This document shows, one piece after another, positions 1,747 to 60,749 of a stretch of DNA of 64,000 bases. The DNA is taken from NCBI GenBank assembly GCA_965153355.1, contig OZ231126.1:47926001-47990000 (forward strand). The letters are read 5' to 3'. The notes beneath the pieces were generated by a model, which had not been told where the DNA came from, searched no databases, and saw only the letters and a program-made list of their open reading frames with translations. Each line of letters starts with the position of its first letter. The first letter of the stretch is position 1. The translations under genes and the position numbers were made by a program. The stretch comes from Flaccisagitta enflata (lineage: Eukaryota).

Positions 1747-1805
<59 letters not shown>

Positions 1806-4443: not shown

Positions 4444-7539
<3,096 letters not shown>

Positions 7540-8456: not shown

Positions 8457-17326
<8,870 letters not shown>

Positions 17327-17398: not shown

Positions 17399-18150
17399 AT
17401 TGAGTTGGTAAAAAAGTGATTGAAAAAACAAAGACAGATTGTTGCAAACTGGGTTTATATGTTAACAAATGATTGGGGTTATCAGAATCGCATTGGGACC
17501 GATACGCCACATTGCAACTGATTCAACAAACGATTTCTTTGTTTTCTGCTATCAACCTGTGTTTGTCGCCAAATCTTTTGTGTCGTGTTTTCATTTGGGT
17601 TTTACGCTTTTCCTCGTTTTCATTTGCTTCTGTGGCAAAGTGGATCTGTCTGTCTGAATGTTGTTTTTAGTTGCGGACACGCAACTCTATAAGAGGCTTT
17701 GTTCGTCCGTCCGATGGTCCGTCCGTTGGTCCGTCTGATGGTCCGTCCGATGGTCCGTCCGTTGGTCATGGTGATCGAGTTGAAAAGTGGGAAAATGCGC
17801 ATATCCGCCCCTGCCCACCTGTCCGCAACTGGTGGCCGTGTATCCGGCCTTGTTCTTTTTGAGACTCTCCGTCCATTTCCTGATAGTTTTTCATTGATTC
17901 CTTCGACGTCTTCAGAAGCATTCATTTCATCAAGCGCCTTGGTAACTTGTTACCAATGCATTGGACTTTTCCTTTGCCGGGCTCAGAATTTAATTCAAAT
18001 ATTTTCAGACAAATAAGCTTTTAATTCTCATTTCTTTACTGCTCTTTGACCTTTGCTCACCCTCGCCGCCACCAATTTCCTCTCACGTGGCTCCCCTTCA
18101 CCCCTCTTTCCCTACTTTTACTGAAATGTCTGGTTCTTAAAAATGATGAA

Positions 18151-23770: not shown

Positions 23771-24033
23771 TCCGTCTTTCTTCTTACTTCTTGCTTCCTT
23801 TCTTCCCTCCTTCTTTTCTTTACTTACCTCCTTTTGTTCTTTATTTTGTTCATTCTTTCTCTCTTTCTTTCTCTTTTTGGTTTGTCGGTCGGTCTGTCGG
23901 TCCGTCCGTCCATCCATCGGTAACATTTTTGAATTGCGAGTGGTTTTTACATTACTGCTCCAGCCCAACCGTCCGCGGCTGTCCTTCCGTGTACGCATGT
24001 AGCCAGCCTTGTTTCTCTCATTCTTTCTTTTTT

Positions 24034-29639: not shown

Positions 29640-34483
<4,844 letters not shown>

Positions 34484-34531: not shown

Positions 34532-35193
34532 CGCTATATGCTCGATTCTAACAAAGGCAACTATTGTTTTGCGTTAGATTGAGGCGGTTTGATAAAGCAC
34601 ATTTGAATGAAAATGTAAAACTAAAAGCTAAGATATCTTAATGCGCTGTTGCTGTTGGAGAACCTCATTCATTCTGTCAGCTCGTCTGACTGATTTTGAG
34701 CAGCAGCCCTAAATAGTCTGATTACCTGCACTAAGGCTTTGCTAAAATGCATTTTTGAATATTGGTTTAGAAACTGAAATAGGCAACGTTTTTACTCAAA
34801 CTGATGCCATTTCTATACGAAAAAGATAGCAATGCCAGAGTGGCGCCAAATGAAAGTAATTTTGAAGGCCTTTATGGTAAGTTTTTCTAAGATTCATAGG
34901 TAAAATTAGCCATCCAAAATTGCGTCTTTTTTTTTTGGGGGGGGGGGTCGTATGGTATATTGTGATCTGTACTACACTCACTATGATTCATGGATACAAT
35001 TAGAAATTCTAAGCTTGAATTTCGGTTGATATTCAAATTTTAGAGCTGCAATTCTATTTGAAAACTAATGCCTTGAGGCCCGCCCCATTTACACTGATAA
35101 GGGGTGCACCCGGGTGGCAAGTACTGCTAAACATCTAACGCTTCTGTTTAGTCTGCTGTAGGTCATTTCCACAATAAACCGGCCCAGCTGAAA

Positions 35194-35872
35194 TGTCGTA
35201 AATGTGAAAAGCCTCAAAACCTGTATAATAGTGACTCTACCTCATATTTACCGCTTTTTGTGAAGAAGTGGTTGGATGCAACTAGAGTAGCGTGGTCAGG
35301 AGCTGAATGCATGCAAATGTACCCTCGATCTTACAACTACCTTGCAACTCTTGTGCATCGATGTTGCGTGTTTGCAACTTAACCTCATGGATGATCAACT
35401 TCATGAAGAGGAGACTAGAATGCAACTACCTCTTGCTCATGGAGTAAGCTTCTTCTTGAAGGAAGAGGCTAACTGTAGGACTATAAAAGAGTGGTTGATC
35501 ATCCATCGGGGCTCACTCTTTAACTGAGGCCAGTCACTGTAACATCTTGTGACTGAACTAAATGAACCATCAATCCTCAACAAATAACATCAATAGTCAA
35601 CATTTGATATCAATTAACAACAATTACCATCGATTATCTTGCATTGTCTACCATTTGTCATCGCCATCAAATAAATATCATCTATCATCAACTGCGTCTT
35701 TGTCAAATAAAACCGAGTCTTGTAATCAAAGACAATCTCTTCTCTTTTCAACCATCGTTTAAACAACAAACTATAGACAGTGTAATCAATCAATCAATCA
35801 GTCAGTAAAATCGTGTAAACCCATATCTCATGCCCTATAGCGTTGCCAACTGGTTAGAACGTCATTAACTCA
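35194..35872 (+). repeat. 5' LTR
   Basis: TGTCGTAAAT...TTAACTCA; TATAAAAG at 35482; AATAAA motifs near 35670-35711. Confidence 0.95.
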
Positions 35873-35874
35873 GT

Positions 35875-35884
35875 TGGTGGCAGC
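35875..35884 (+). promoter_or_regulatory. Primer binding site, tRNA-Leu type
   Basis: TGGTGGCAGC two nt after the LTR, complementary to the ..GCUGCCACCA 3' end of eukaryotic tRNA-Leu. Confidence 0.8.
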
Positions 35885-37004
35885 TAATGGGAACCTCCTA
35901 ATATTTTAATAACATTATTAGGGGGAAAAGGGACCCAAGACTGTTTTTACAATAATGTTCTAAAATACGCTATGAACGGGAAATCGATTTTTTCATCGGA
36001 AAGAAAAACGCTTTTTTTTTCTCTCCCTTTCTCCGTTAAACTCAAACCATATGAGCCAATTTGTACAAGATCGAAACTGACCATCAAGACGATCATCCAC
36101 TTGACCAAAAATCTCGGAATAAGAAAGAAAAAGAAAGAAAGAAATCGCCGGCTTTAAATTCAAAAGAAACCTCATAGATTTCGGCGATCTAATCACCAAA
36201 ATGTTTTTATTTCTACAAAACACAACCACACTTCTCTCGTAAAACATTTAACAACCTCGTCTGAAAACTAAATTTCTCCTCCTTGCATCTTGAGTTACTC
36301 ATCAACAAAACCTCACATTGCGTTTGACTTGGCCGCCTTAACGAGTCAATCGCCACTATGCGTTAAAATGAATCCGGGAATTAGTAATTCTCATCAAGGT
36401 TGGAAAAACTTCGTTTCTTTGACCTTTTAAGTCGCGTGCACGCGACTCTATGACCCGCTCTGTCGGTCCGTCGGTGTTGGTCTTGTTCCAAATTATGTCC
36501 TGGCTTTGATCATCGATTCAACGCTCAATCTTCATAAATTGATTTTGACCTCGTTTCGTTTCATGCGCAAAGCTTTTGAAGCCTTCGTCCGAAAACTAAC
36601 TTTCCCATTCTTTCATCTTATTGATAACAATCAAACACCCAAATCCTCAGCGCTCAAAACGTACATAATTACAGCAATCTTTTTTGACTTGGGGCTTTAA
36701 TGATCATCGATCGAACACCATTTAGAAATCATATTTTGCGTCATTTAAAAATACGATAGAGTCACCAACAAAATTGTGCTTTACGTCATAGGCAATCACG
36801 TTCTCCTCCTCTGAAAACTAAGCATTTCTCTGTTTTCCGACTTTATTTATTTATCATCGTTATTGACTCAATTAACAATGATAAGGGGGAAGATATAATG
36901 ATCGTGAAGGGAAAACCAGTAAGGAGAATTGAGTGACGATGCTGAGGAGAGTAGCCTGTTGAAGCAAAGATGGGCAAGTAAGGGAAAATACATCAATAAA
37001 CCGC

Positions 37005-38850
37005 ATCCTCTGAGTGGGCCACCACCATCCTCTGAGTGGGCCACCACCATCCTCCGAGTGGGCCTCCACCATCCTCCAAGTGGGCTTCCACCATCCTCCG
37101 AGTGGGCCACCACCATCCTCCGAGTGGGGCCACCACCATCCTCCGAGTGGGCCACCACCATCCTCCAAGTGGGCCACCACCATCCTCCAAGTGGGCCACC
37201 ACCATTATCCGAGTGGGCCACTACCATCATCCGAGTGGGCCACTACCATCCTCCGAGTGGGCCACCACCATCCTCCGAGTGGATCACCGCCATCCTCCTC
37301 CTCCTCCAGGTGGACCACCGCCACCCTCCTCCTCCAGGTGGACCACCGCCATCCTCCTCCTCCGAGTGGACCACCGTCATCCTCCTCCGAGTGGATCACC
37401 GCCATCCTCCTCCTCTGAGTGGACCACCGCCATCCTCCTCCTCCGAGTGGACCACCGCCATCCTCCTCCTCCGAGTGGGCCACCGCCATCCTCCTCCTCC
37501 GAGTGGGCCACCGCCATCCTCCTCCTCCGAGTGGGCCACCGCCATCCTCCTCCTCCGAGTGGACCACCGCCACCCTCCTCCTCCGAGTGGACCACCGCCA
37601 TCCTCCTCCTCCGAGTGGGCCACCGCCATCCTCCTCCTCCAAGTGGGCCACCGCCATCCTCCTCCTCCGAGTGGGCCACCGCCATCCTCCTCCGAGTGGG
37701 CCACCGCCATCCTCCTCCTCCGAGTGGGCCACCGCCATCCTCCTCCTCCGAGTGGGCCACCGCCATCCTCCTCCTCCGAGTGGGCCACCGCCATCCTCCT
37801 CCTCCGAGTGGGCCACCGCCATCCTCCTCCTCTGAGTGGGCCACCGCCATCCTCCTCCACCAAGCTGGCCACCGCCATCCTCCTCCTCGGAGTGGGCCAC
37901 CCCATCCTCCTCCTCCGAGTGGGCCACCGCCATCCTCCACCGAGTGGGCCACCGCCATCCTCCTCCACCGAGTGCCACCGCCATCCTCCACCGAGTGGGC
38001 CACCGCCATCCTCCTCCTCTGAGTGGGCCACCGCCATCCTCCTCCACCAAGTGGGCCACCGCCATCCTCCTCCACCAAGTGGGCCACCGCCATCCTCCTC
38101 CTCCGAGTGGGCCACCCCCATCACCCTCCTCCTCCGAGTGGGCCACCGCCATCCTCCTCCACCGAGTGGGCCACCGCCATCCTCCTCCACCGAGTCGGCC
38201 ACCGCCATCCTCCTCCACCGAGTGGGCCACCGCCATCCTCCTCCTCTGAGTGGGCCACCGCCATCCTCCTCCACCAAGTGGGCCACCGCCATCCTCCTCC
38301 ACCAAGTGGGCCACCGCCATCCTCCTCCACCAAGTGGGCCACCGCCATCCTCCTCCACCAAGTGGGCCACCGCCATCCTCCTCCTCCGAGTGGGCCACCC
38401 CCATCCTCCTCCTCCGAGTGGGCCACCGCCATCCTCCTCCACCGAGTGGGCCACCGCCATCCTCCTCCACCGAGTGGGCCACCGCCATCCTCCTCCACCG
38501 AGTGGGCCACCGCCATCCTCCTCCACCGAGTGGGCCACCGCCATCCTCCTCCACCGAGTGGGCCACCGCCATCCTCCTCCTCTGAGTGGGCCACCGCCAT
38601 CCTCCTCCACCAAGTGGGCCACCGCCATCCTCCTCCTCCGAGTGGGCCACCGCCATCCTCCTCCTCAGAGTAGGCCACCGCCATCCTCTGAGTAAGCCAC
38701 CGCCATCCTCCTCTGAGTAAGCCACCGCCATCCTCCTCCTCTGAGTGGGCCACCGCCATCCTCCTCCTCCAAGTGGGCTACCGCCATCATCTCCTCCGAG
38801 TGGGCCACCGCCATCCTCCTCCTCCAAGTGGGCCACCGCCATCCTCCTCC
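37005..38850. repeat. GC-rich minisatellite (22-bp, then 28-bp units) inside the LTR element
   Basis: GAGTGGGCCACCACCATCCTCC grading into GAGTGGGCCACCGCCATCCTCCTCCTCC. Confidence 0.95.
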
Positions 38851-40441
38851 CTCCAGCTGCAGTGCCGTCCTCCTGCTGCAGCACCATCTCTCTCCGGCTG
38901 CAGCGCCATATATCCAACTGCAACGCTTCAGCCGTGGCATCGCCCATATTTCCCTTGTCTCGCCCCCTCTGCCTTGGTAACATTGAAAGACCAAAATCAA
39001 CCACGGTAACATCCATTACATTCATAACATCGAATATCAGAAATGAAAATCAGATGCGAAGGAGGGATTGATAGATGCAAAATTGGAAACGTACAAATGG
39101 TCAAAATGTATCTATTCAATATTCAGTAAGATCCGTCCTTTGGTCCAAAACGTGTTTGATTTCTTCTAACGAAACGATTCAATTTTTAGTCGCGGACACG
39201 CGACTCTACACCTTGCCGTGTCGGTCGGTAGGTCGGTATGTCGGTCCGTCGGTCCGTCGGTCCGTCGGTCCGTCCGTCACATTTTTGAATTCCGAGCGGT
39301 TTTTGCATTACTGCTCCTGCCCAACAGTCCGCGACTGGATTGCCGTGTATCCGGCCTTGTTTACCTCCTCAATGCCATTGTCTCTCATAAATTTTTAACG
39401 ATTGTAGCATAAATTTATGTTAGAAATGTTCGCCTAATCTTACAGATTTTTCCGCTATTTTCTGTTTTTCACATTACCAAGATCTAATAGTGATATTGTA
39501 AAGCAAAAGGAGTTGAGCAAGAAAGTAGCTACACTTTTGTTTTGAATTGTTTACTTAGATATCGGCATACAGACATCACCAAATCTACTTTAAATTCATA
39601 GCTGTTATAAAATCAACGTTTACCCCTTTCATGTTGGCCGTTTGATCACTTAGTTCCTTGATGTTTACATGTTTGTAAATGTGGCACTGGTTTTACCCGT
39701 CTGGTGAAAGTTCTGTCTGTCAGTGGATCTGTCTGCAAACAAGGGTCGGTGAACCTCTCCTTTTCTTTTACGTCGTGTACTATGTGACTTTCTCTCGCCT
39801 TGTCCATCTGTTGGTTGGTTTGTCCTCATTTGGCGTTTTTAAGCCTTTTGAGCTCACTGCTCCTACCAAAATGCCCTGGTTGTCTTTTCTATCACTGCAT
39901 CTGCCCACCAACACGCGACTGAGGTAGCCGTGTATCCAGCCCTGTAAGGTGTTCATAAAATACTTTTTAGGTGCGACAAAGCACCTCAATAACTGGCTGT
40001 GTCCGTTGGTCAGTCGGTCGGTTGGTCTGTCGGGTAACGCATTTATTTCGACAATCCACACGTCGCACCTTATTGGCCTACTTGGCCTTGTTTTAAGAGC
40101 TGACCTTGGTCAAATGCGACAAGAGTAGTCTTGCCCTCAGCCCTCCATCACATCGCGTGTGCCTAACTTCAGCAGAAGCAGGTAGCCATCTGTACAAACA
40201 TATATCTTTAACGGAAATAGCCATAGGCCAGGTCAACAACAAAGCTGATGAGTTAACAGGTACAGACTGTGATTTGATGCATTGAATGAACACAATGCTT
40301 GGATAACATAAGTATATCATTTTCAGTTACATGCCCATTGATCAAGAGAATTTGTGCAAAAAAAAAAACCGTGAAAATGGAACATCGCATTTTGACTCAC
40401 GCATAGACTAAAAGGCACACTCATGATCTAGCGAAGGCGTG

Positions 40442-43400
40442 ATGGGACTAAATGAAATGATGAAACCTTCAAAAAGTGAGTCAATTTATGTGGATGCTTT
40501 GTGGAGCAGTATTGAAATGGCAAAACTGGCTCAGGAAGAAGCTAATCAGTGGAGAAAAGGTACAAAAAATGAAGCAGGACACAATCAAAATTGGGAGGCA
40601 TTATTTGATAGCTACGGAATGCCGGAACCCAATTCTGGGTTGGCTTCAGTTGGTGCCAACTTGAAATCTAAATCTAAACATGAATTTGATGAATCATACC
40701 TTTGGAATCGTGAAGTCAAACCAACTGAAACCCGTCAAACCCAACCACTGATTGAATATGTCCCAAGCAATCAAGCAACCAACAGTCGCGCAGATAATTA
40801 CCAGGTGACAGACAATAATGGATTTTATGACAAAAGAAGTGAAAATAAGGACGTCTTCGGATGGGAATCTCCAGATACAGGACCCTCACAAAAATCAAAT
40901 TGTGATCTGGATCCTCTGAAGTATTGTAAAGAACAATACACTCGCCAAGACTGGGGCAATAACAGCGTCGAAAACCCTTTACAAAAGCAAGAATGGCAAG
41001 CTGAAATTTGTGGATTTGGATTTGTATCCGAGAATGAATCTGAGTCTGAATCTGAGTCTGAATCTGAGTCTGAATCTGAATCTGAGTCTGAATCTGAGTC
41101 TAAATCAAAGGCTGAATCTGAGGTCGAATCCGAGGTTGAATATTGTGGAACAAACTATGATTTGAGTCACAGTATTGATCAGCTTGATCGACTTCGACTC
41201 CAGCCTCATGCTAAGAGTATACCATCTTTCTCCAGTCAAGCAACAAGAGAAACTAACAAATGGAGAATGGATACCATGAAAAAAATAGACTGCAACCAAG
41301 GATGGAGAACCCCAAATGATAGTACAGTAATGATGACAAAGTACAGTTGGGCACTCAGACAACCTGACATACCTCAAATGCAACCAAACAGTGATAATCC
41401 ACAAGGTCTTGCATTTGATGATCATATGGATATTTCCCAGATGATTGACGAGGATGGATTCTTTGACCCCAGAATGGAAAATTGGGCCATTTTCAGATGT
41501 GCCCCCCAAAACAAAGGGAATTCTGGTATGGCTCTAATGAGTTGCTGTACAGAACAACAAAGTCATAAAGACTTGGGGAATGACTGCAGCCTGAATTCTG
41601 TAAACAAGCAAGCATGGCAAGCTCCAATTTCCATTTATGAATCTGGATCTGACAGTGAATATGAGTCTGAAAGTGAATCTGTCACATCCGAGACTCCATC
41701 TGTCACTGAGTCTGTTGCTGAGTCTGAGATTCTGTTTGTTGCTAAGTCTGTGTCTGTAGATGTATCTGAGTCTGTCAATGAGCCAATCGATGAGTCTGAG
41801 ACTGAATCTGTTGATGAGTCTCAAACTGAGTCTGTCGCTGAGTCCGAGTCTGTCGCTGAGTCCGAGACTGAGTCTGTCGCTGAGTCCGAGACCGAGTCTG
41901 TCGCTGAGTCCGAGACCGAGTCTGCCGCTGAGTCCGAGACCGAGTCTGTCGCTGAGTCCAAGACCGAGTCTGTCGCAGAGTCCAAGACCGAGTCTGTCGC
42001 AGAGTCCAAGACTGAGTCTGTCGCAGAGTCCAAGACTGAGTCTGTCGCAGAGTCCGAGACTCAGTCTGTCGCAGAGTCCAAAAATCCGTCTGTCGCAGAG
42101 TCCAAGACTCCGTCTGTCGCAGAGTCCAAGACTCCGTCTGTCGCAGAGTCCAAGACTCCGTCTGTCGCAGAGTCCAAGACTCTGTCTGTCACAGAGTCCA
42201 AGACTCCGTATGTCGTAGAATCCAAGACTCCGTATGTCGTAGAAACCAAGACTCCGTCTGTCGCAGAGTCCAAGACTCCGTCTGTCGCAGAGTCCAAAAC
42301 TCCGTCTGTCGCAGAGTCCAAAACTCCGTCTGTCGCAGAGTCCAAGACTCCGTCTGTCGCAGAGTCCAAGACTCCGTCTGTCGCAGAGTCCAAGACTCCG
42401 TCTGTCGCAGAGTCCAAGACTCCGTCTGTCGCAGAGTCCAAGACTCCGTCTGTCGCAGAGTCCAAGACTCCGTCTGTCGCAGAGTCCAAGACTCCGTCTG
42501 TCGCAGAGTCCGAGATCGAGTCTGTTGCTGAATACAAGACTCCCTCTTTCTCAGAATCAAAGACTCTGTCTGTCCCAGAGTCTGAGACTCCGCCTGTCGC
42601 AGAGTCCGAGACTCCCTCTGTCGCAGAGTCCGAGACTCCCTCTGTCGCAGAGTCTGAGACTCCCTCTGTCGCAGAGTCCGAGACTCCGTCTGTGGCAGAG
42701 TCCGAGACTCCGTCTGTGGCAGAGTCCGAGACTCCGTCTGTGGCAGAGTCCGAGACTCCGTCTGTGGCAGAGTCCGAGACTCCGTCTGTGGCAGAGTCCG
42801 AGACTCCGTCTGTGGCAGAGTCCGAGACTCCGTCTGTGGCAGAGTCCGAGACTCCGTCTGTGGCAGAGTCCGAGACTCCGTCTGTGGCAGAGTCCGAGAC
42901 TCCGTCTGTCGCAGAGTCCGAGACTCCGTCTGTCGCAGAGTCCAAGACTGCGTCTGTGGCAGAGTCCGAGACTGCGTCTGTGGCAGAGTCCGAGACTGCG
43001 TCTGTGGCAGAGTCCGAGACTGCGTCTGTGGCAGAGTCCGAGACTGCGTCTGTGGCAGAGTCCGAGACTGCGTCTGTGGCAGAGTCCGAGACTGCGTCTG
43101 TGGCAGAGTCCGAGACTGCGTCTGTGGCAGAATCCCAGACTCCGTCTGTCGAAGAATCCCAGACTCCGTCTGTCGAAGAATCCCAGACTCCGTCTGTCGA
43201 AGAATCCCAGACTCCGTCTGTCGAAGAATCCCAGACTCCGTCTGTCGAAGAGTCCCAGACTCCGTCTGTCGAAGAGTCCCAGACTCCGTCTGTCGAAGAG
43301 TCCCAGACTCCGTCTGTCGAAGAGTCCCAGACTCCGTCTGTCGAAGAGTCCCAGACTCCGTCTGTCGAAGAGTCCCAGACTCCGTCTGTCGAAGAGTCCC

Positions 43401-46400
43401 AGACTCCGTCTGTCCAAGAGTCCCAGACTCCGTCTGTCCAAGAGTCCCAGACTCCGTCTGTCGAAGAGTCCCAGACTCCGTCTGTCGAAGAGTCCCAGAC
43501 TCCGTCTGTCGAAGAGTCCCAGACTCCGTCTGTCGAAGAGTCCCAGACTCCGTCTGTCGAAGAGTCCCAGACTCCGTCTGTCGAAGAGTCCCAGACTCCG
43601 TCTGTCGAAGAGTCCCAGACTCCGTCTGTCGAAGAGTCCCAGACTCCGTCTGTCGAAGAGTCCCAGACTCCGTCTGTCGAAGAGTCCCAGACTCCGTCTG
43701 TCGAAGAGTCCCAGACTCCGTCTGTCGAAGAGTCCCAGACTCCGTCTATCGAAGAGTCCCAGACTCCGTCTATCGAAGAGTCCCAGACTCCGTCTATCGA
43801 AGAGTCCCAGACTCCGTCTGTCGAAGAGCAAGCCCAACATTCACATCATTGCTCAGATTTGAACTTTGATCCTCTTTGGCAGACTAAACAAGATGCAAAA
43901 GCTATGGAAAATGATGATAAAGAATGCAAGAAATATCAATCCGCAGGCAACAAGGAAGAGGATTTTGGACATTCAGATGAAAATAAAAAAGAATTGGATT
44001 GCATCGAAAATAATGCAGAAACCTTCAATAGTGGCAGTTGTGGCAAGAGCAGATACAGTGGTAGCAACTTAAATAAAGTTATCAAGTTCATTGAAAATTC
44101 AGTGCCAAATTTGAACTCAAACCCTTTTCCCAAACCTGTGCATGACTCCAAAAAAATACCTAAGATTGAAGCAGAAGCACCACCCAGACCCACAGAAAAT
44201 GCTCTTCACAACTCAAGGGGGAATAAAATAGTGTATCACGGATCATCATTACAAGGCAGTGAAGCCTTAATTGAGATAACAAATATGAGTCTACATTTTC
44301 ATGATATCTCAGAAAAGAATGAGGTTGCAGAAAACCAAGTTTTTATGCCACTGAATCATGGCGCACCAGATCATGATGCACTTGACCGTGGCAGAATTGA
44401 CCATATCGCACTCAATCATAGCACACTTGATCATAGCTCAATAAGTCTTTGGAAACTCAAACCTCACATTACATCTGATGCTTATGACAATCAAGTTCCT
44501 GAACGTTGTGCAATTGATTGTGCACTTGAGGATTGCACACTTGAAAATTGTGAACTGGACTACTCTGCACAAAGCAATTGCGCCCTGAATCTTGAACATG
44601 ACATTTGCGCCCTGGACAGTTGCGCACTTGATAAACTGGTATTTGTGCTGAAAACAGAATGGGAAAGTGATCCTAGATTACCCATATCCACAGAGAAGGC
44701 ACATAACAGCTACTCAAGGGGGAATGAAAATCTATGTCAGAGGATATCAATGAAAAATCAAGGTCTGAATAGAATGTCAACCGGCAATGTAAATTTTCAT
44801 AATACCTCAGGGGGAAAGAAGGATGTGGTAGAGAATGAAGATTTAATGAGGAATGATGAAAATGTACTATTTGAAATCAAGGAACGCACGACCAAACTCA
44901 TTAATGACAAACCTGTGCCAGATGCAGGGACCATGTATGAGCATGAGAAATCACTAAAACCTGAACCATGTCCCAAATGTGGGGAAAACCTCCTTGGCAA
45001 ACCTGCGATCAAGCTAGAACTTGGGGACAGACTATCTAATTACACATCACCAGGAAATCAGGATAAAGAGAACAACACAACAGATAAAGCACTTATCACC
45101 AATGTAATCGAGAATGAAAGGAGCAACCTTGCCTGTGGCATCGGTATGTCTGAGGATCACGCTCTTATCAACTGTGCCCTAGACAGTCAGGCTCATAGCA
45201 ATTGTGTTGTCTACAATCCTGCTCACAGCGAATGTTTGTTTGATGGCCCTAGACCCAAAGATAGTGCAATTGAAGATGGTGCACCAAAGGATTGTCAAAT
45301 AGAAGGTTGGGCACTCAAAGGTGCGCTCCAAGATCCTGCGCTCCAAGATCCTGCGCTCCAAGATCCTGCGCTCCAAGATCCTGCGCTCCAAGACTGTGCT
45401 CTCAATGAACAGGCTATCAGCAATCAGGCGCTCCAAGATCCTGCGCTCCAAGATCCTGCGCTCCAAGATCCTGCGCTTCAAGATCCTGCGCTCCAAGATC
45501 CTGCGCTTCAAGATCCTGCGCTTCAAGATCCTGCGCTCCAAGATCCTGCGCTCCAAGATCCTGCGCCCCAAGATCCTGCGCTCCAAGACTGTGCTCTCAA
45601 TGAACAGGCTATCAGCAATCAGGCGCTCCAAGATCCTGCGCTCCAAGATCCTGCACTCCAAGTTCCTGCGCTCCAAGATCCTGCGCTCCAAGATCCTGCG
45701 CTCCAAGATCCTGAGCTCCAAGATCCTGCGCTCCAAGATCCTGCGCTCCAAGATCCTGCGCTCCAAGATCCTGCGCTCCAAGATCCTGCGCTCCAAGATC
45801 CTGCGCTCCAAGATCCTGCGCTCCAAGATCCTGCGCTCCAAGATCCTGCGCTCCAAGATCCTGCGCTCCAAGATCCTGCGCTCCAAGACTGTGCTCTCAA
45901 TGAACAGGTGCTCAGCAATCAGGCACTTAACCATAAGCTGCTCAACAGTAAGGCGCTTAACACCCTGACCCTTAACAATCAGGTGCTGAAGGATCAGGCT
46001 CTCTATGATCAGGTTCCCAAGTATCAAGCACTCAAGGACCAGGCACTGAACAATCGGGCACTGAACATTCAAGCACTCATGAAACATACATTTGATGAGA
46101 ATGCACTTGTTGACCCTACCTTCAATGATCATTCACTCCATGAACAGGTGCCTGACATATGCGACTCCAGCACTTTTACATCTAATAAGCGGGTTGTAAA
46201 ACAGCTTCAGTGCAAGAAGCCTACCAAAAAGTATCAACCCCCAAGCTTAATTGGCAGCAATGGTAACAAGTCAATGAATAAGAATGGAAGCACAGATAAA
46301 ATCACTTGCTGGCGCAAAGCTGCTGAGAGAGTGGAGGATCAGGGAGGTTACATGAATGCAGCCCAGACAGCTTATGAAGCCACAAATGCCAGGAATGCCA

Positions 46401-47407
46401 GAGGTAAGTATGGTGTACCCTGCGATTTGTTGTGTCAGAGCTCTATACTCATTCTCCTTGCATTTCTTATGACAATTTTCTCTTCACCAAATTGCACAAT
46501 GAAGATCAATCAAGTTGAAATGAAAGCACATGTGAATCACAGGTTGACACCTGGTATTGTAGAAAACTTGCAATACCCCATGAACCAAAAACTTCATCTA
46601 TCAGTTGACAAAAAAAATGTCAAAGTCATCAACCATGTCCAAAATATTGAGATGGATGCTAACAATGGTGATAGAGCAAGCAACAAACCATCAGAAGAAA
46701 ATCAAAGTGAAAAAGTTATGATTTACCCTGAAATGGTAAGATTCGAAGTTGCAGATGCCGTGAAATTCCCACTTCAGTACTTGCAATCATGGTTCCAGAC
46801 CTATCATGGGATGGATAAGAAGGAAAACACCAAGGTCTTTCCCTCTACAACAGTTGACTATCCAGAGACATCCACAACCTGGAAAGACTCTCAGCAAAAA
46901 TCTGCTTTACGAGAAGAGTCAAAAACCAACTTAATCCAGGCAAAGAATGATGGCAGGCATCAAACTATGGAGCAAAAGAGACAACTGGTATACTCAGGCG
47001 ACTGGATAAAGAAAAATGAAAAACCAATTAAAGCACATACTCTTGCAGTCTTAAAAATTCACAGTACAAACAGCGAGCTGCCAGTTGGAAAGGGGAAATT
47101 CAAAGGTGAAAAGCACTCATCTTTAGCTGTAATATCAAAAGCAAAGATGCACGATATCAAATTGGCAATTGAAACTATCCATACTGGTGGACTTGAGATG
47201 AAATTTGGCCAAGGATTCAACAATCACAGCAAAACAATTGGTATGGATTCGAAGTTATTGGGCAAAAGTGAGGGTGCACAGCAAAGGAAAACCACTGACA
47301 AACTCAACGGTCAGAGAAATGTCTACAAATGGTGCGAGCAAACACTGAAGAAGCAAGCACCTTCAAAGACAGCCACCCAGAATCGGATGCGACAAAAGTT
47401 GTTTTAG
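40442..47407 (+). CDS. Giant (~2320-aa) repeat-expanded, catalytically degenerate Gag-Pol-derived protein
   Basis: Stop-free ~7-kb ORF. Vestigial motifs occur in gypsy order: FDPRMENW; INDKPVPDAG..NLLGK; KPTKKYQPPSLIG; YGVPCDLLCQ..LAF..NQVEMKA..LQYPMNQKLHLSVDKK..VADAVKFPL; SELPVGKG..IHTGG. Similarity judged by eye. Confidence 0.75.
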   Translation: MGLNEMMKPSKSESIYVDALWSSIEMAKLAQEEANQWRKGTKNEAGHNQNWEALFDSYGMPEPNSGLASVGANLKSKSKHEFDESYLWNREVKPTETRQTQPLIEYVPSNQATNSRADNYQVTDNNGFYDKRSENKDVFGWESPDTGPSQKSNCDLDPLKYCKEQYTRQDWGNNSVENPLQKQEWQAEICGFGFVSENESESESESESESESESESESESKSKAESEVESEVEYCGTNYDLSHSIDQLDRLRLQPHAKSIPSFSSQATRETNKWRMDTMKKIDCNQGWRTPNDSTVMMTKYSWALRQPDIPQMQPNSDNPQGLAFDDHMDISQMIDEDGFFDPRMENWAIFRCAPQNKGNSGMALMSCCTEQQSHKDLGNDCSLNSVNKQAWQAPISIYESGSDSEYESESESVTSETPSVTESVAESEILFVAKSVSVDVSESVNEPIDESETESVDESQTESVAESESVAESETESVAESETESVAESETESAAESETESVAESKTESVAESKTESVAESKTESVAESKTESVAESETQSVAESKNPSVAESKTPSVAESKTPSVAESKTPSVAESKTLSVTESKTPYVVESKTPYVVETKTPSVAESKTPSVAESKTPSVAESKTPSVAESKTPSVAESKTPSVAESKTPSVAESKTPSVAESKTPSVAESKTPSVAESKTPSVAESEIESVAEYKTPSFSESKTLSVPESETPPVAESETPSVAESETPSVAESETPSVAESETPSVAESETPSVAESETPSVAESETPSVAESETPSVAESETPSVAESETPSVAESETPSVAESETPSVAESETPSVAESETPSVAESKTASVAESETASVAESETASVAESETASVAESETASVAESETASVAESETASVAESETASVAESQTPSVEESQTPSVEESQTPSVEESQTPSVEESQTPSVEESQTPSVEESQTPSVEESQTPSVEESQTPSVEESQTPSVEESQTPSVEESQTPSVQESQTPSVQESQTPSVEESQTPSVEESQTPSVEESQTPSVEESQTPSVEESQTPSVEESQTPSVEESQTPSVEESQTPSVEESQTPSVEESQTPSVEESQTPSVEESQTPSIEESQTPSIEESQTPSIEESQTPSVEEQAQHSHHCSDLNFDPLWQTKQDAKAMENDDKECKKYQSAGNKEEDFGHSDENKKELDCIENNAETFNSGSCGKSRYSGSNLNKVIKFIENSVPNLNSNPFPKPVHDSKKIPKIEAEAPPRPTENALHNSRGNKIVYHGSSLQGSEALIEITNMSLHFHDISEKNEVAENQVFMPLNHGAPDHDALDRGRIDHIALNHSTLDHSSISLWKLKPHITSDAYDNQVPERCAIDCALEDCTLENCELDYSAQSNCALNLEHDICALDSCALDKLVFVLKTEWESDPRLPISTEKAHNSYSRGNENLCQRISMKNQGLNRMSTGNVNFHNTSGGKKDVVENEDLMRNDENVLFEIKERTTKLINDKPVPDAGTMYEHEKSLKPEPCPKCGENLLGKPAIKLELGDRLSNYTSPGNQDKENNTTDKALITNVIENERSNLACGIGMSEDHALINCALDSQAHSNCVVYNPAHSECLFDGPRPKDSAIEDGAPKDCQIEGWALKGALQDPALQDPALQDPALQDPALQDCALNEQAISNQALQDPALQDPALQDPALQDPALQDPALQDPALQDPALQDPALQDPAPQDPALQDCALNEQAISNQALQDPALQDPALQVPALQDPALQDPALQDPELQDPALQDPALQDPALQDPALQDPALQDPALQDPALQDPALQDPALQDPALQDPALQDCALNEQVLSNQALNHKLLNSKALNTLTLNNQVLKDQALYDQVPKYQALKDQALNNRALNIQALMKHTFDENALVDPTFNDHSLHEQVPDICDSSTFTSNKRVVKQLQCKKPTKKYQPPSLIGSNGNKSMNKNGSTDKITCWRKAAERVEDQGGYMNAAQTAYEATNARNARGKYGVPCDLLCQSSILILLAFLMTIFSSPNCTMKINQVEMKAHVNHRLTPGIVENLQYPMNQKLHLSVDKKNVKVINHVQNIEMDANNGDRASNKPSEENQSEKVMIYPEMVRFEVADAVKFPLQYLQSWFQTYHGMDKKENTKVFPSTTVDYPETSTTWKDSQQKSALREESKTNLIQAKNDGRHQTMEQKRQLVYSGDWIKKNEKPIKAHTLAVLKIHSTNSELPVGKGKFKGEKHSSLAVISKAKMHDIKLAIETIHTGGLEMKFGQGFNNHSKTIGMDSKLLGKSEGAQQRKTTDKLNGQRNVYKWCEQTLKKQAPSKTATQNRMRQKLF
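41826..43827 (+). repeat. ~80 x 24-bp coding repeat, (E/K/Q)T(P/E/A)SV(A/E)ES
   Basis: Direct reading, in frame. Confidence 0.95.
45322..45900 (+). repeat. 15-bp coding repeat (ALQDP)n with a CALNEQ higher-order unit
   Basis: GCGCTCCAAGATCCT units. Confidence 0.95.
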
Positions 47408-48684
47408 CTCAACATCAGCCATCGCGATTAGGTGTCCATCAAACTGTCCCACAAGAAACAAAAGGACTATGTCAGATTGTATTGAAAATAAGTAATACAT
47501 CAATCAAAATTTTGAGATTCACTATCATTGTATATAACTAGGAATCAAGGCAATTGTGATCTGTTGAAGTTAAAGCTCTTGGATGTAGATTTAACTCCAA
47601 CTCTTATAAGAGATAACCCCGCCAAGCTAATGCCGACCCTACTAAGCTTTTGGACACTTGAAGCAGACTCAAAAAGCCTGAGTTCAATCTCACCCAAGTA
47701 GAAAGATGCATGAACTGTCATTTTGTTAAATGGTGCACTCCCAGACGGTGCACTCCCAGACGGTGCACTCCCAGACGGTGCACTCCCAGACGGTGCACTC
47801 CCAGACGGTGCACTCCCAGACGGTGCACTCCCAGACGGTGCACTCCCAGACGGTGCACTCCCAGACGGTACACTCCCAGACAATGCACTCCCAGACGGTT
47901 CACTCCCAGATGGTGCACTCCTAGATGGTGCACTCCTAGATGGTGCACTCCTAGACAGTGCACTGCCAGACGGTGCACTCCCAGACGGTACACTCCCAGA
48001 TGGTGCACTCCCAGGTGGTGTACTCCCAGACAGCACACTCCCAGACAGTGCACTCCAAAAGTGTGCACTCCAAGACAGTGGTAAGAATCCAGACTCAGAA
48101 TGGCAATTGTAAAAGGGATCACCCAGTCGAAGAAGGCATGAACTGTGAAATTTACAAACGCCACACACAAATAATGTACGGGGTTTTACTGATTTTTGCC
48201 ACGGTTAAGAAAAATAAATCAGACTAGACATCGACTCGAGGGTGTCTGAAAAATGACTGAAACATTGACTAGTCGGAAGTTAACATGATACAGTATAAAT
48301 ATGCAAGAAAGGAGCACTGGAAAATAACGAATGCCTAACTTTGAAGGGGAATCAGGGCGTATCACGCGCAATTGAGGGATCTTGCAAATCATGTGATGTA
48401 ACCAAAGGAATTTGGGTCCTGCCTCAAAGCATAGTTGATAGCGTTATGCAGTTGGCTGCTTGAGCAATACTGAGGAAGTCATGGCTACGATTAGAATTAC
48501 CTTGAGGGCATTTGTTCTAGGAAACACAATTTAGCTTTAGAACTACTCTTTCTCCATCCTCACAGATGGATTCCGGCAACGATTTTTAAGCGAATGATCC
48601 GTATCGCTGCCATTAACAAAAGGCAAGCAACCGATCGATGCTATGTCGAAGCCAAGCGGCGTATGGCGACGTCGTGAAAAATGA
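47408..48684 (+). pseudogene. Decayed integrase remnant interrupted by a 15-bp (GALPD)n array (47731-48075)
   Basis: TPTLIRDNPAKL (cf. IVSDNGPQF); LRAFVLGNTI*L*NYS, RWIPATI and PSGVWRR (cf. gypsy IN C-terminus), with stops and frameshifts. Confidence 0.5.
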
Positions 48685-50125
48685 CACAGTTCTCGCAAAG
48701 GTGACAGAGGAATTGGACCTTGACAAATCAATTGCATAGAGTATGGATTACAGAGAAATGCGTGGTTCCACTGCTGCAATTTTGCTAGGATTTGATATTT
48801 GACATCTGAAGAGCCAAGCGGCGGCGGAAGGCGACGCTGCAAAAACAAATGACAGTCAAAGTGGAAAGAGACATAAGGGTGACAGACCTTCCAGAAAAGA
48901 ACTTGGGAGGAAAAGCGAGGTTCTACTGCGGCAATCAAGATTTACTGCAGCTTGATAATCTTGTGGCTAATCTTGACAAGACGTTTAAGGCAAGCAAGTC
49001 AAGATACTAGTTCATTCATAAGTTGAAGTACATTTCAAACAGGTCAGGATGAGAGGTAGTCATGAGCAAATATATACACCTGATAACTCTATGGCAGGAG
49101 GCCACTTAAATGAGAGGAAATAATGGCTATGCTAAAATACCTCGAAGGTGAAGGGCTGAGCTGCAAGTTTGTCCGTGTTCTGCAGCTTAATCTACAAATA
49201 AGATTTGGGAAGCTGTGATATTTGGTTAAATATACAGGGCTTGGGCCTAAATTTATACACCTATGTCTTTTATACTCTATTCAGATAGGCTCTTTGTTAC
49301 TGGAAAGTAAGTTTTTGTTTTTATTTTTTTTGCATCAAAATTAGATTATTTTTAATCATGCCCATATAGCCTCGGCCTTGGTAATGAAACTATGGAATAG
49401 CATGAAACTAATTTTGTAGTGACATGTGAGACAGTTTGATTGAAGGACGCTAATACTTTATGCTCGATGATAGACTATTTCAGAATTGGATCAATGGCTT
49501 ATTGCGACTAAATTTTCACCTTAATCACTCATGATTAAACAAGGCAACGTTTCATATTTAGAATTTGACAATAGTTGGTGTTTAAAAAGATGTAGTTCCT
49601 TATATTGTTCTTAGTAAAGAATTTCCTTTATTGTCTTTTCAAAACTATATTGCTAGAGAAATCATTTTGTCATGAAAGCCATAGTTAAGTCTAACATTCA
49701 TGATGAATGAAATATTCTCAGGAAATTATTGGTGGCGATAAATTACAACCCTCCTTATGATACTGACATAATCTTCCTCTATAACACAATGTTGTTAGAT
49801 TTTTTTTCATTATTTTTTTTTGGTTTCAGGTAACTATGTGTGTAAATAAACTGTTTATTCAATCATGATTCTGAGGAAAGCTGATTTATGATTTTATCCT
49901 TCTTTTCTTTCTTTTAAACTTGAGATTGGAAATTTTGAATCCTTCAATGTTCCCTATTGTTTTCAAAGCTGCTTAAATCCATTTTTGACATGTCTTTGAT
50001 TTAATTCAGTTACCTTCAGATCAATGATTTTAATTCTCTTGGATACAGGATTTCCTTTATCTTTGTAAATGCTTGAATGTTTTTGCTGAATGTTGCTATT
50101 TGCTTTGTCCTCCAACCACTTATTC

Positions 50126-50134
50126 AAGGGGGAA
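50126..50134 (+). promoter_or_regulatory. Polypurine tract
   Basis: AAGGGGGAA two nt before the 3' LTR. Confidence 0.85.
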
Positions 50135-50136
50135 TC

Positions 50137-50815
50137 TGTCGTAAATGTGAAAAGCCTCAAAACCTGTATAATAGTGACTCTACCTCATATTTACCGCTTT
50201 TTGTGAAGAAGTGGTTGGATGCAACTAGAGTAGCGTGGTCAGGAGCTGAATGCATGCAAATGTACCCTCGATCTTACAACTACCTTGCAACTCTTGTGCA
50301 TCGATGTTGCGTGTTTGCAACTTAACCTCATGGATGATCAACTTCATGAAGAGGAGACTAGAATGCAACTACCTCTTGCTCATGGAGTAAGCTTCTTCTT
50401 GAAGGAAGAGGCTAACTGTAGGACTATAAAAGAGTGGTTGATCATCCATCGGGGCTCACTCTTTAACTGAGGCCAGTCACTGTAACATCTTGTGACTGAA
50501 CTAAATGAACCATCAATCCTCAACAAATAACATCAATAGTCAACATTTGATATCAATTAACAACAATTACCATCGATTATCTTGCATTGTCTACCATTTG
50601 TCATCGCCATCAAATAAATATCATCTATCATCAACTGCGTCTTTGTCAAATAAAACCGAGTCTTGTAATCAAAGACAATCTCTTCTCTTTTCAACCATCG
50701 TTTAAACAACAAACTATAGACAGTGTAATCAATCAATCAATCAGTCAGTAAAATCGTGTAAACCCATATCTCATGCCCTATAGCGTTGCCAACTGGTTAG
50801 AACGTCATTAACTCA
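50137..50815 (+). repeat. 3' LTR
   Basis: Same sequence as 35194-35872; followed by GAAA. Confidence 0.95.
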
Positions 50816-51663
50816 GAAATTCTTGATATAACTGGCAAAAAAATATTTTTTATCATGCTATTATTTTTTTTCATGACGGAAGTTTTTGAAACACAATACT
50901 TATACTTTAGTGCCTTGCTAATATCCTTCATACTTAAAATTTTGATTAGCTATTTAGCAAAAAATAAGGCCAAAATTACCCCATTTCTTATGTCACACTG
51001 ATGTCACACTCATAACCACTATGAAAAAGACATAAAAAAATCATTAAGCCTACCGAAATACAGGTTTTTTTTGTTTAGTTGCAATCCCTGAGAAAGAACT
51101 AAAGATTTGATGGTGTCCAGTTGTCATTTACTATGGAAAAATTTGACTTACAGTTGATAGGTCCAAAATGATGATTTTTTCTGATTTTGACAAATAGAAG
51201 TATCCTATACTTTAAAGGGCAATATCTTACATATTATTTAAAAATTTTTTTCCCCCTTCAGTACAGACATAACCCAAGTCACATACAAAATTTCAGACCT
51301 TAATGTTGATTCTAGCCGGAGATATTGATTTTTGAAGAGAGTGTCTTAATTTATTAACACCCTGTTACGCTTATGTTACTCTGATTATGATGAAAATTAA
51401 CATAGTTGAACACACTTTGAGTATTAGAATATTTTTTTATATGATCGAAAAGAGTATCAAATTCCAAGCATAAGCCTCAAATTTCAGACTATTAGGCGCA
51501 ACCATTATGAAATTATAATATTTTTAGCAATCTTAACGAATTTAGACATCTAATTTCCGCCAGTCTAGATTATTGTGGAAATTGCCTGTATCTGTCTTTC
51601 CGTGCATCTTTGTCTTTAACTTTGTTCGTCATACTTCTTCTTATTCGCTCGGTCAGTTTCTCA

Positions 51664-51756
<93 letters not shown>

Positions 51757-52015
51757 TGTCTCTCTTAGATTTTGTGCACCATAAACTGCGGGCTTAAGTG
51801 CGCTTTATTCATTATAGGCGTTCAGCGGAGCGCAAAAAAACGGGAGAGGGCTGTCGGCAGTTTTATTACTTAAATGTTTTAACGTCTTCATTAAGTCGGT
51901 GCAGTGGCCATTGGCAATGACGATGTCAGCGATGTGAACGCAGATGATGGCACTTCTGGCGTCGGCGACGGAATGACGCTCGTTTCTATGGCGCGCTTTA
52001 AGTCTTAGAGGCGCC

Positions 52016-52981: not shown

Positions 52982-60749
<7,768 letters not shown>

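What the first reader, a model, noticed from the sequence alone, without database searches (positions are those of the whole stretch)
35194..50815. Freshly inserted 15.6-kb LTR element that carries a giant repeat protein instead of working retroviral enzymes
Seen: 679-bp LTRs with no visible differences, TG..CA ends, GAAA TSD, tRNA-Leu-type PBS and PPT, which together indicate a very recent genuine retrotransposition. Inside there is no YxDD RT core, no intact D(T/S)G protease, no CCHC knuckle and no intact integrase, only one 2322-codon ORF. Known non-autonomous LTR elements (LARDs, TRIMs) are generally non-coding or simply deleted. Inference: this is a trans-mobilised element lineage that maintains a large, acidic, repeat-built protein. 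The protein might help hijack a helper's particle, form condensates, counter silencing, or be a mobile neofunctionalised gene. This is the best candidate for an undescribed system in the window.
Basis: partly seen in the sequence, partly recalled or inferred. Interest (0 to 1): 0.9.

Follow-up and report, generated by a model that had tools for sequence, protein, structure and literature searches.

The report
LTR element carrying a drifting ORF
This is a real, recently inserted LTR retrotransposon that has lost all its own enzymes and carries a 2321-codon orphan reading frame, but that frame appears to be drifting, unexpressed cargo rather than a protein the element maintains.

Summary
Two 679-bp LTRs are 100% identical, end in TG..CA, are flanked by GAAA|GAAA, and have a TGG-type primer-binding site and a purine tract in the right places. 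No RT, integrase, protease or gag signal exists in any frame. The interior (14.3 kb) is four tandem arrays, SINE-like fragments and one 2321-codon sense ORF. About 39% of the ORF is in-frame 24-bp and 15-bp arrays. The other 1419 codons are open far beyond chance.

The interpretation "maintains a protein" is not supported:
- Against the dominant sibling variant in public runs, the C-terminal 501 codons show 24-25 non-synonymous versus 4-5 synonymous changes. pN/pS is 1.2-1.6 and omega <=0.3 is rejected.
- Unit variants within both arrays look neutral.
- The ORF part diverged 2.6 times faster than the 3' non-coding part plus LTR.
- No polyA RNA read fell on the ORF among 12.2 million reads.
- It has no homologues beyond near-identical fragments.

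Best reading: a LARD-like, trans-mobilised non-autonomous LTR element with trapped or relic coding cargo. The ORF's intactness remains mildly puzzling.

The parts
35190..35193 (+). left copy of the 4-bp target-site duplication (GAAA)
35194..35872 (+). 5' LTR, 679 bp, TG..CA; TATAAA at 35482, AATAAA at 35670 and 35706
35875..35892 (+). primer-binding-site-like 18-mer starting TGG, 2 nt after the LTR (tRNA identity not tested)
36417..36475 (.). fragment of a short dispersed (SINE-like) repeat also found at several other places in the window
   Evidence: element coordinates 1224-1282
37004..38850 (.). G+C-rich minisatellite (22-bp then 28-bp units, about 70 copies); open in several frames on both strands, giving spurious ORFs such as 37205-39025 (-)
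39182..40095 (.). stretch with several fragments of dispersed SINE-like repeats shared with window 6.1-6.4 kb, 15.7 kb, 17.7 kb, 23.9 kb and 56.1 kb
   Evidence: element coordinates 3989-4902
40442..47407 (+). 2321-codon sense ORF (P0001), an orphan. Segments: A (residues 1-440), 8-aa array (441-1137), B (1138-1625), ALQDP array (1626-1830), C (1831-2321) with one hydrophobic stretch at about 1994-2015
41848..43828 (+). 24-bp tandem array, 82.5 copies, in frame (ES[KEQ]T[PA]SV[AE])
45322..45888 (+). 15-bp tandem array, 37.8 copies, in frame (ALQDP)
47408..50136 (+). 3' non-coding part; more conserved between copies than the ORF; metatranscriptome contigs lie only on 49357 onwards
47732..48080 (+). 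15-bp tandem array related to the ALQDP array (reads GALPD in the ORF's frame), separated from the ORF by 7 stops
50126..50134 (+). polypurine tract AAGGGGGAA, 2 nt before the 3' LTR
50137..50815 (+). 3' LTR, identical to the 5' LTR
50816..50819 (+). right copy of the target-site duplication (GAAA)

Best explanation
A young copy of a small family of non-autonomous LTR retrotransposons of the LARD type, in a marine eukaryote. The element keeps only what is needed in cis: LTRs with a promoter and polyA signal, integrase-recognised TG..CA ends, a PBS and a PPT. It is copied and inserted by the Gag-Pol of an unidentified helper element, giving the 4-bp duplication. This mechanism is inferred from the anatomy and was not observed. 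Its 14.3-kb interior is trapped or relic DNA: minisatellites, SINE-like fragments, and one long sense ORF that was once real coding sequence and was lengthened by in-frame 24-bp and 15-bp array expansion. The ORF is cargo. It evolves without detectable constraint on its amino-acid sequence, is not detectably expressed, and is still open in this copy mainly because the family or the capture is recent and because array units lack stops. Whether the ORF came from a cellular gene or from a former element gene is not settled.
For: Structure: (identical LTRs, termini, TSD, PBS, PPT, TATA and AATAAA, all in one orientation with the ORF in sense). No enzymes. More than one copy: the dominant contig over 45900-47761 is the same variant in X1 (organism A) and X3 (marine metagenome), with 33 other letters and two 15-nt deletions in both. 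X1 holds a second variant of 48530-48876 (25 differences, depth 82 versus 275). Four LTR contigs carry 50473 C>A. Summed depth in X1 is 327 on the ORF and 590-1100 on the LTR, against 58-91 in the two outermost flank bins; in X3 it is 10.5 and 17-20 against 0. X3 record 12 joins the 3' non-coding part to the LTR. Neutral drift: 24-25 non-synonymous to 4-5 synonymous changes over 501 codons (1197 N sites, 306 S sites), pN/pS 1.2-1.6, P=0.0012 or 0.00026 under omega 0.3 and P=0.45 or 0.27 under omega 1. Array unit variants are 12 synonymous to 24 non-synonymous and 5 to 13, matching neutral fractions. The ORF diverged 2.0% versus 0.77% in non-coding plus LTR, Fisher p=0.0006. No expression: 0 reads on 45900-47407 among 12.2 million polyA RNA reads of X16, and 0 X8 contigs on the ORF. 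The ORF lies 4927 nt and 40 ATGs downstream of the predicted start. Orphan: only near-identical fragments among 1.84 billion representatives for residues 1138-2321 (2 real hits among the 150 listed), and 2 fragments for residues 1-440. It was once coding: 0 stops in 440, 488 and 491 codons versus 19-65 in the other frames. Precedent: DNA trapped between two LTRs and moved in trans (passages of PMC6431247).
Against: The ORF is intact over 1419 non-repeat codons. With 4.8% of random substitutions making stops, about 1% divergence per lineage gives about 2 expected stops (P of none = 0.13), and 2% gives P = 0.017. N-terminal fragments at 79% and 69% identity (P0154, P0153) imply 10-16% nucleotide divergence if neutral. 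If those are copies of the same element family, the frame could not have stayed open in this lineage without selection. All indels seen inside the ORF are multiples of three (15, 15, 33 and 3 nt), whereas 3-4 frameshift-type indels lie in the compared non-coding part (per-substitution p = 0.09 or 0.04; per-nucleotide not significant). The dN/dS rests on one pairwise comparison of one third of the non-repeat ORF, using a contig that may blend copies. Omega 0.5 is only marginally rejected (p = 0.04 or 0.014). Only about 6 in 100 of one polyA run was read, of unknown tissue. No helper element, no empty site and no copy with another flank was seen directly.
Confidence: 0.6

Rival explanations
1. 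The element lineage (or the host) does maintain the protein. It would be a fast-evolving, largely disordered, acidic repeat protein that serves the element, for example by competing for the helper's particles or countering silencing, or a mobile host-like gene under weak or diversifying selection.
For: The frame is intact over 1419 non-repeat codons. The diverged fragments P0152, P0153 and P0154 are open over 514, 163 and 127 aa with only in-frame indels. The start context is good, with G at -3 and G at +4. pN/pS of 1.2-1.6 is also what diversifying selection gives, and omega 0.5 is only marginally excluded. The composition is typical of disordered proteins, which tolerate high omega.
Against: Synonymous sites are as diverged as non-synonymous ones, and both exceed the neighbouring non-coding DNA, which points to drift or mosaic origin rather than selection on the protein. 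No RNA lies on the ORF. There is a 4.9-kb leader with 40 upstream ATGs and no clear splice signals. P0003 loses similarity upstream of residue 1445. Fragments in a protein database are open by ascertainment. There is no signal peptide, domain or homologue.
Confidence: 0.2
2. Selection keeps the frame open but not its sequence. A long translatable frame would protect or help the element's RNA, for instance by avoiding decay triggered by early termination, so missense changes are free while stops and frameshifts are purged.
For: The pattern fits: omega of about 1 together with no stop, and only multiple-of-three indels in the ORF against 3-4 frameshift-type indels in the adjacent non-coding DNA. 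Array periods inside the ORF are 24 and 15, whereas the upstream non-ORF array has 22 and 28.
Against: The indel contrast is weak (p = 0.04-0.09 per substitution, not significant per nucleotide). The two 15-nt deletions lie in a 15-nt-periodic region and need no selection. P(no stop in 29 substitutions) is 0.24 under pure drift. The ORF ends 2.7 kb before the 3' LTR and starts 4.9 kb after the promoter behind 40 ATGs, so it would not shield the RNA well. The downstream array also has a period of 15 without being coding.
Confidence: 0.1
3. The ORF is a very diverged element protein, gag-like or env-like, swollen by repeats, so the element would be semi-autonomous like TR-GAG or RLG_Quinta elements.
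For: It lies in sense orientation between the PBS and PPT. There is one hydrophobic stretch near the C-terminal quarter. Non-autonomous elements that keep gag, sometimes with an unknown domain, exist.
Against: There is no gag, capsid, zinc-knuckle or envelope match in Pfam, in solved structures by sequence or by motif. There is no N-terminal signal sequence. A size of 2321 aa is far outside those proteins. Drift-like evolution would be unexpected for a contributed Gag. A fold comparison could not be run.
Confidence: 0.07
4. It is not one mobile unit: an assembly artefact, or a host gene that happens to lie between two separate LTR insertions.
For: No read-level check of this locus was possible. 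LARD and TRIM calls in animals are often mere repeat pairs (passages of PMC5718144).
Against: The PBS lies inside the left LTR and the PPT inside the right LTR. There is one shared 4-bp duplication outside both, canonical termini, and the two LTRs share the minority states relative to the dominant LTR variant in X1 (the 6-nt insertion at 50418 and 50473 C>A are absent from both). The metagenome contig X3 record 12 independently joins the interior to the LTR.
Confidence: 0.03

Closest known systems
Large retrotransposon derivatives (LARDs; Kalendar et al. 2004, as cited in PMC6431247 and PMC13570524, passages read)
   Same: LTR-bounded with PBS, PPT and TSD; longer than 4 kb; no RT, IN or PR; must be moved in trans; the interior is DNA that replaced the original coding region.
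   Different: LARDs are described as non-coding, while this one holds an intact 2321-codon ORF. The interior is 14.3 kb, whereas the review says material between LTRs rarely exceeds 10 kb. The host is a marine eukaryote, not a plant. No helper was identified.
LTR elements that transduce or trap host sequence (cases listed in PMC6431247, passages read; maize Bs1 is recalled, not read)
   Same: A foreign ORF sits between the LTRs of an element that lacks its own enzymes, and the cargo is not needed for movement and drifts.
   Different: No cellular source gene could be shown here, because there is no genome and no homologue. The cargo is far larger and about 39% of it is tandem array.
TR-GAG elements and RLG_Quinta (PMC13570524 passages; PMC11302176 abstract and passages)
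   Same: Non-autonomous LTR elements that keep one open sense ORF; Quinta also carries a domain of unknown function.
   Different: Those ORFs are recognisable GAG and are thought to contribute protein. Here no GAG signature was found, and the sequence evolves as if unconstrained.
Mammalian apparent LTR retrotransposons (MaLR/THE1)
   Same: From recall only: animal non-autonomous LTR elements with a non-retroviral-looking interior, moved by ERV-L.
   Different: Their interior is short, about 1.5-2 kb by recall. The one passage retrieved (PMC5753468) only lists family names, so this comparison is untested here.

Membership tests
LTR retrotransposon (structural definition) | two direct long terminal repeats ending TG..CA | tested here: met
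   679 of 679 bases identical, TG and CA ends
LTR retrotransposon (structural definition) | short target-site duplication flanking the pair | tested here: met
   GAAA on both sides; chance 1 in 256
LTR retrotransposon (structural definition) | tRNA primer-binding site just inside the 5' LTR | tested here: inconclusive
An 18-mer starting TGG lies 2 nt after the LTR. Which tRNA it matches was not testable: no tRNA gene in the window and no genome held.
LTR retrotransposon (structural definition) | polypurine tract just inside the 3' LTR | tested here: met
   AAGGGGGAA at 50126-50134
Autonomous Ty3/gypsy, Ty1/copia, BEL/Pao or ERV element | gag and pol (PR, RT, RNase H, IN) reading frames | tested here: not met
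   No such Pfam family in P0001 or in any of the 149 other frame pieces; 0 CCHC, YxDD, DTG or HHCC motifs
LARD | non-autonomous, longer than 4 kb | tested here: met
   15,622 bp in all, no enzymes
LARD | non-coding interior | tested here: not met
   A 2321-codon ORF, with 1419 non-repeat codons open at 10^-52 by chance. By sequence change and RNA it behaves as non-functional, so it works like a LARD but does not fit the strict definition.
LARD | repeated family with an autonomous partner sharing LTR ends and PBS | tested here: inconclusive
   More than one variant and raised depth in X1 and X3. No partner was found: 0 matches to the U5-PBS junction and 0 confirmed protein relatives in metagenome contigs. 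The organism's genome was not available.
TR-GAG / semi-autonomous elements | ORF recognisable as GAG | tested here: not met
   No gag or capsid match by Pfam, PDB sequence search or motif. A fold-level test was not possible.
Gene-transducing LTR element | interior homologous to a cellular gene present elsewhere without LTRs | not testable with these tools
   No genome is held. The only relatives are short unnamed metagenome fragments without context.

The most novel reading that the evidence does not exclude
The active lineage of this enzyme-less LTR element is under selection to keep a 7-kb frame open. Either the disordered acidic repeat protein acts for the element, or translation itself protects the RNA. 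In both cases the amino-acid sequence is almost free to change. That would be a non-autonomous retroelement with a maintained non-retroviral gene. The 69-79% identical but still open N-terminal fragments, and the lack of frameshifts, would be its trace.
Probability: 0.15. Interest if true: 0.75.

Novelty: new member of a known kind. Interest (0 to 1): 0.3.

Why it matters
Non-autonomous LTR elements are poorly catalogued outside plants. This copy is a clean, very young example from a marine eukaryote, with an unusually large interior (14.3 kb). It shows how tandem-array growth inside a mobile element can build a giant open frame that looks like a gene. For annotation it is a warning: a 2321-codon ORF can be drifting cargo. 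If the minority reading were right, and the frame is kept open by selection, it would be a rare case of a parasite-of-a-parasite retroelement carrying its own non-retroviral gene. The test is cheap once the genome's copies are compared.

Tried and rejected
- Whole-genome search for sibling LTRs: no genome is held for this window.
- Rfam at gathering thresholds and tRNA scan of the window: 0 matches each.
- Pfam on 14 long frames of the flanks: 0 of 14 hit, so there are no organism or context clues.
- The Pfam hits on P0001 (Gp5_trimer_C, Extensin_1, Fibrinogen_BP and others) lie on the periodic arrays. I reject them as low-complexity matches.
- In one search, 148 of the 150 listed hits align only to the ALQDP pentapeptide region. 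I reject them as repeat matches.
- Paralogous empty site: the right-flank repeat copy at 13647-14067 starts 173 nt beyond the insertion point, so it gives no information.
- Whether the odd ends of P0003 and P0153 are frameshifted readings of the same DNA: no match in any frame of the window. This shows rearrangement or unrelated sequence, not a simple frameshift.
- Frame 0 read past the stop: 7 stops before the downstream array, so it is not a recently truncated ORF.
- Metagenome contig scans for the U5-PBS junction and for segment C: nothing.
- X8 record 19 runs 113 letters beyond 50816. I first read it as another copy's flank, but it can equally be the PBS and leader that follow the 5' LTR, which was not in the laid stretch. 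I do not count it either way.
- Depths are summed contig depths, and I do not use them as copy numbers.
- Literature searches listed no paper describing an enzyme-less LTR element with a multi-kb orphan repeat ORF. Supplements were not seen.

Full report
**1. The observation**

The two proposed LTRs (35194-35872 and 50137-50815) are 679 bp long and identical at 679 of 679 positions. They begin TG and end CA. GAAA lies directly outside each, and the identity stops at the boundaries: 0 extra bases on the left and 1 on the right. An 18-mer beginning TGG sits 2 nt inside the 5' LTR, and a 9-nt purine run ends 2 nt before the 3' LTR. The LTR holds TATAAA at 35482 and AATAAA at 35670 and 35706, all on the + strand. 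There are no further LTR copies in the window. The ORF 40442-47407 (+) has 2321 codons.

With 0 differences in 679 bp, the 95% upper bound on LTR divergence is 0.44%. That puts the insertion below about 0.2-2.2 million years for rates of 1e-8 to 1e-9 per site per year. These rates are assumed, not measured.

**2. No retroviral enzymes**

- Pfam on the ORF gives only matches that lie on its periodic arrays.
- None of the 149 other stop-to-stop pieces of at least 30 aa from all six frames of the interior matches an RT, integrase, protease or gag family. Nine give weak hits to unrelated families (E 0.012-0.049), all below their curated cut-offs.
- CCHC, YxDD, DTG/DSG and HHCC patterns occur 0 times.
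- The three non-repeat ORF segments have no meaningful relative among solved structures by sequence.

Fold-level checks could not be run.

**3. What the interior is**

Tandem Repeats Finder reports four arrays:
- a G+C-rich 22/28-bp minisatellite (37004-38850)
- a 24-bp array of 82.5 copies (41848-43828)
- a 15-bp array of 37.8 copies (45322-45888)
- a second 15-bp array (47732-48080)

The first array is open in several frames on both strands and produces spurious ORFs of up to 606 codons. Two stretches (36417-36475 and 39182-40095) carry pieces of short dispersed repeats that recur elsewhere in the window.

The big ORF contains the 24-bp and first 15-bp arrays in frame, 697 + 205 of its 2321 residues. 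The remaining three segments (440, 488 and 491 codons) have 0 stops, against 19-65 in each of the other two frames. By the stop density of those frames, the chance of this is about 10^-52. So this is, or recently was, real coding sequence, lengthened by array growth.

The protein is acidic (402 D+E against 191 K+R). It is rich in S, E, N, K and Q, has one hydrophobic stretch near residue 2000, and has no N-terminal hydrophobic leader. Parts of segments B and C are visibly decayed pentapeptide repeats.

**4. Relatives**

- phmmer of residues 1138-2321 against 1.84 billion cluster representatives listed 150 hits. Of these, 148 align only to the pentapeptide array. The two real ones are short fragments at 95% and 90% identity.
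- A third fragment, P0152, covers the last 514 residues at 93% identity with two in-frame 5-residue gaps and the same stop.
- Residues 1-440 found nothing among proteins of 1276-4062 aa. Among shorter proteins they found two fragments, at 79% and 69% identity.
- All five fragments come from unnamed metagenome contigs of 561-3964 bp.
- P0003 loses all similarity to the window upstream of residue 1445, in every frame.

The ORF is thus an orphan with a handful of close to moderately diverged siblings.

**5. Public runs**

The stretch 43900-50900 is held at 0.51-0.67 of its sampled words by six DNA-type runs: two of 'organism A' and four marine metagenomes of one study.

I laid 45900-52000 on four runs: X16 (polyA RNA, raw reads), X1 (organism A), X3 (metagenome) and X8 (metatranscriptome).

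a) Over 45900-47761 the single dominant contig is the same variant in X1 and X3, with 33 other letters and two 15-nt deletions. It corresponds to P0152.

b) X1 has two variants of 48530-48876 (2 and 25 differences). All four LTR contigs carry C>A at 50473 and a 6-nt insertion at 50418, and both LTRs of the window copy lack these.

c) Summed contig depth by run:

| Run | ORF | LTR | Two outermost flank bins |
|---|---|---|---|
| X1 | 327 | 590-1100 | 58-91 |
| X3 | 10.5 | 17-20 | 0 |

The tool warns that this is not a copy number. I take it only as showing more than one copy.

d) X3 record 12 joins the 3' non-coding part to the LTR across 50137.

e) X16 gave 0 reads on the ORF part among 12.2 million reads (about 6 in 100 of the run), and only 5 partly fitting reads anywhere.

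f) X8 contigs lie only on 49357-50816.

No listed contig bridges 50815/50816, and the left flank was not in the laid stretch. Neither an empty site nor a copy with another flank was therefore seen.

**6. Selection**

I classified the 30 listed differences up to 47407. Of the 29 in sense codons, 24-25 are non-synonymous and 4-5 synonymous, depending on how one doubly changed codon is counted. The thirtieth turns TAG into TAA. With 1197 non-synonymous and 306 synonymous sites, pN/pS is 1.2-1.6.

| Assumed omega | P of the observed split or more extreme |
|---|---|
| 1 | 0.45 or 0.27 |
| 0.5 | 0.04 or 0.014 |
| 0.3 | 0.0012 or 0.00026 |

Among the 79 in-register 24-bp units there are 12 synonymous and 24 non-synonymous mutation types (neutral expectation 0.72 non-synonymous, observed 0.67). 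Among 37 15-bp units there are 5 and 13 (expected 0.76, observed 0.72). Omega 0.3 is rejected at p = 0.005 and p = 0.03.

Against X3, the ORF part differs at 2.0% of sites and the non-coding part plus LTR at 0.77% (Fisher p = 0.0006). The ends that must work in cis are the conserved parts, or else this copy is a recombinant of two subfamilies. Either way the ORF is the fastest-changing part, and its synonymous sites are as diverged as its non-synonymous ones.

**7. What remains odd**

Of random substitutions in the non-repeat codons, 4.8% make stops. At 1% divergence per lineage, about 2 stops are expected (P of none = 0.13). At 2% the probability is 0.017. The intact frame is therefore mildly surprising for drift even within the young family.

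It would be impossible under drift if the 69-79% identical fragments are older copies of the same element, since those identities imply about 10-16% nucleotide divergence if neutral. They may instead be the cellular source gene, or orthologues in related species present in the metagenomes. Their context is unknown.

All indels seen in the ORF are multiples of three. However, two of them lie in a 15-nt-periodic region, and two are known only from called proteins, which are open by ascertainment. The contrast with 3-4 frameshift-type indels in the non-coding part is weak (p = 0.04-0.09 per substitution, not significant per nucleotide).

**8. How it most likely works**

Shown: the cis anatomy of an LTR retrotransposon, the absence of enzymes, more than one copy, drift-like change in the ORF, and no RNA on the ORF in the data read.

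Inferred: transcription from the 5' LTR, priming at the PBS, and reverse transcription and integration by a helper's proteins, giving the 4-bp duplication. Also inferred: the ORF is trapped or relic cargo.

Translation from the full-length RNA would face a 4927-nt leader with 40 ATGs, and I found no clear splice signals.

I put 0.6 on this reading, 0.2 on a maintained fast-evolving protein, 0.1 on selection for openness only, 0.07 on a diverged gag-like or env-like protein, and 0.03 on an artefact.

**9. Comparison with what is known**

- The review PMC6431247 (passages read) describes host ORF capture by LTR elements. It also describes DNA, 'not necessarily coding', trapped between two LTRs and moved in trans (LARDs), and notes that such material rarely exceeds 10 kb. 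Here it is 14.3 kb.
- PMC13570524 (passages) shows that non-autonomous LTR elements form a continuum that includes ORF-bearing TR-GAG forms.
- PMC11302176 (abstract and passages) describes RLG_Quinta, which carries GAG plus an unknown domain.
- PMC5718144 (passages) warns that LARD calls in animals need termini and target duplications, both of which are present here.
- The MaLR comparison is from recall only.

The element works like a LARD or gene-trapping LTR element. It fails the strict 'non-coding' criterion of LARDs and the GAG criterion of TR-GAGs.

**10. Verdict**

The structure is real and the insertion is young. The enzyme-less state is real. The giant ORF is real but about 39% array, an orphan, drifting and silent in the data available. 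This is a new member of a known kind, with modest interest (0.3). The residual puzzle of the intact frame is kept as the novel case (probability 0.15).

Noticed in passing
window 50988-51407 (also 13647-14067): The DNA starting about 170 nt right of the insertion is a very high-copy dispersed repeat. Summed contig depth is 46,000-157,000 in X1 and 660-2450 in X3, against 58-91 and 0 further out. A second copy at 87% identity lies at 13647-14067.
   Followed up: partly
window 6149-6365, 15733-15860, 17664-17854, 23879-23993, 56061-56170 and inside the element at 36417-36475 and 39182-40095: A family of short dispersed (SINE- or MITE-like) repeats, 69-88% alike, occurs many times in the window and at least twice inside the LTR element. 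Either they were trapped with the interior or they inserted into an ancestor of it.
   Followed up: no
window 1128-2918 (-): Another long low-complexity open frame (596 aa, P0155), with a 129-bp unit repeated 3 times and a long poly-Asn run, and no Pfam match. Giant repeat-built open frames are not unique to the LTR element in this genome.
   Followed up: partly
window 32690-33980: A 1.3-kb (TCTC)n microsatellite with extreme strand skew lies 1.2 kb upstream of the insertion. The window as a whole is dense in microsatellites and minisatellites (23 rows at score >=200).
   Followed up: no
window 47732-48080: The 15-bp array downstream of the ORF is related to the ORF's ALQDP array (about 50% identity at protein level, reads GALPD) and lies in the same frame, but is cut off from the ORF by 7 stops. 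It is probably a duplicated or decayed piece of the same minisatellite.
   Followed up: yes
window 49357-50816: Contigs of a marine metatranscriptome run (X8, depth 3-8) cover only the last 780 nt of the interior and the LTR. One of them runs on for 113 letters beyond 50816. This could be the PBS and leader behind the 5' LTR, or another copy's flank. DNA carry-over is not excluded.
   Followed up: partly
P0001 residues 26-190 and 267-430 (window 40517-41011 and 41240-41731): The N-terminal segment contains an old internal duplication of about 165 residues at 21-25% identity, each copy ending in a Ser-Glu run. It was seen as secondary alignments of P0153 and P0154.
   Followed up: no
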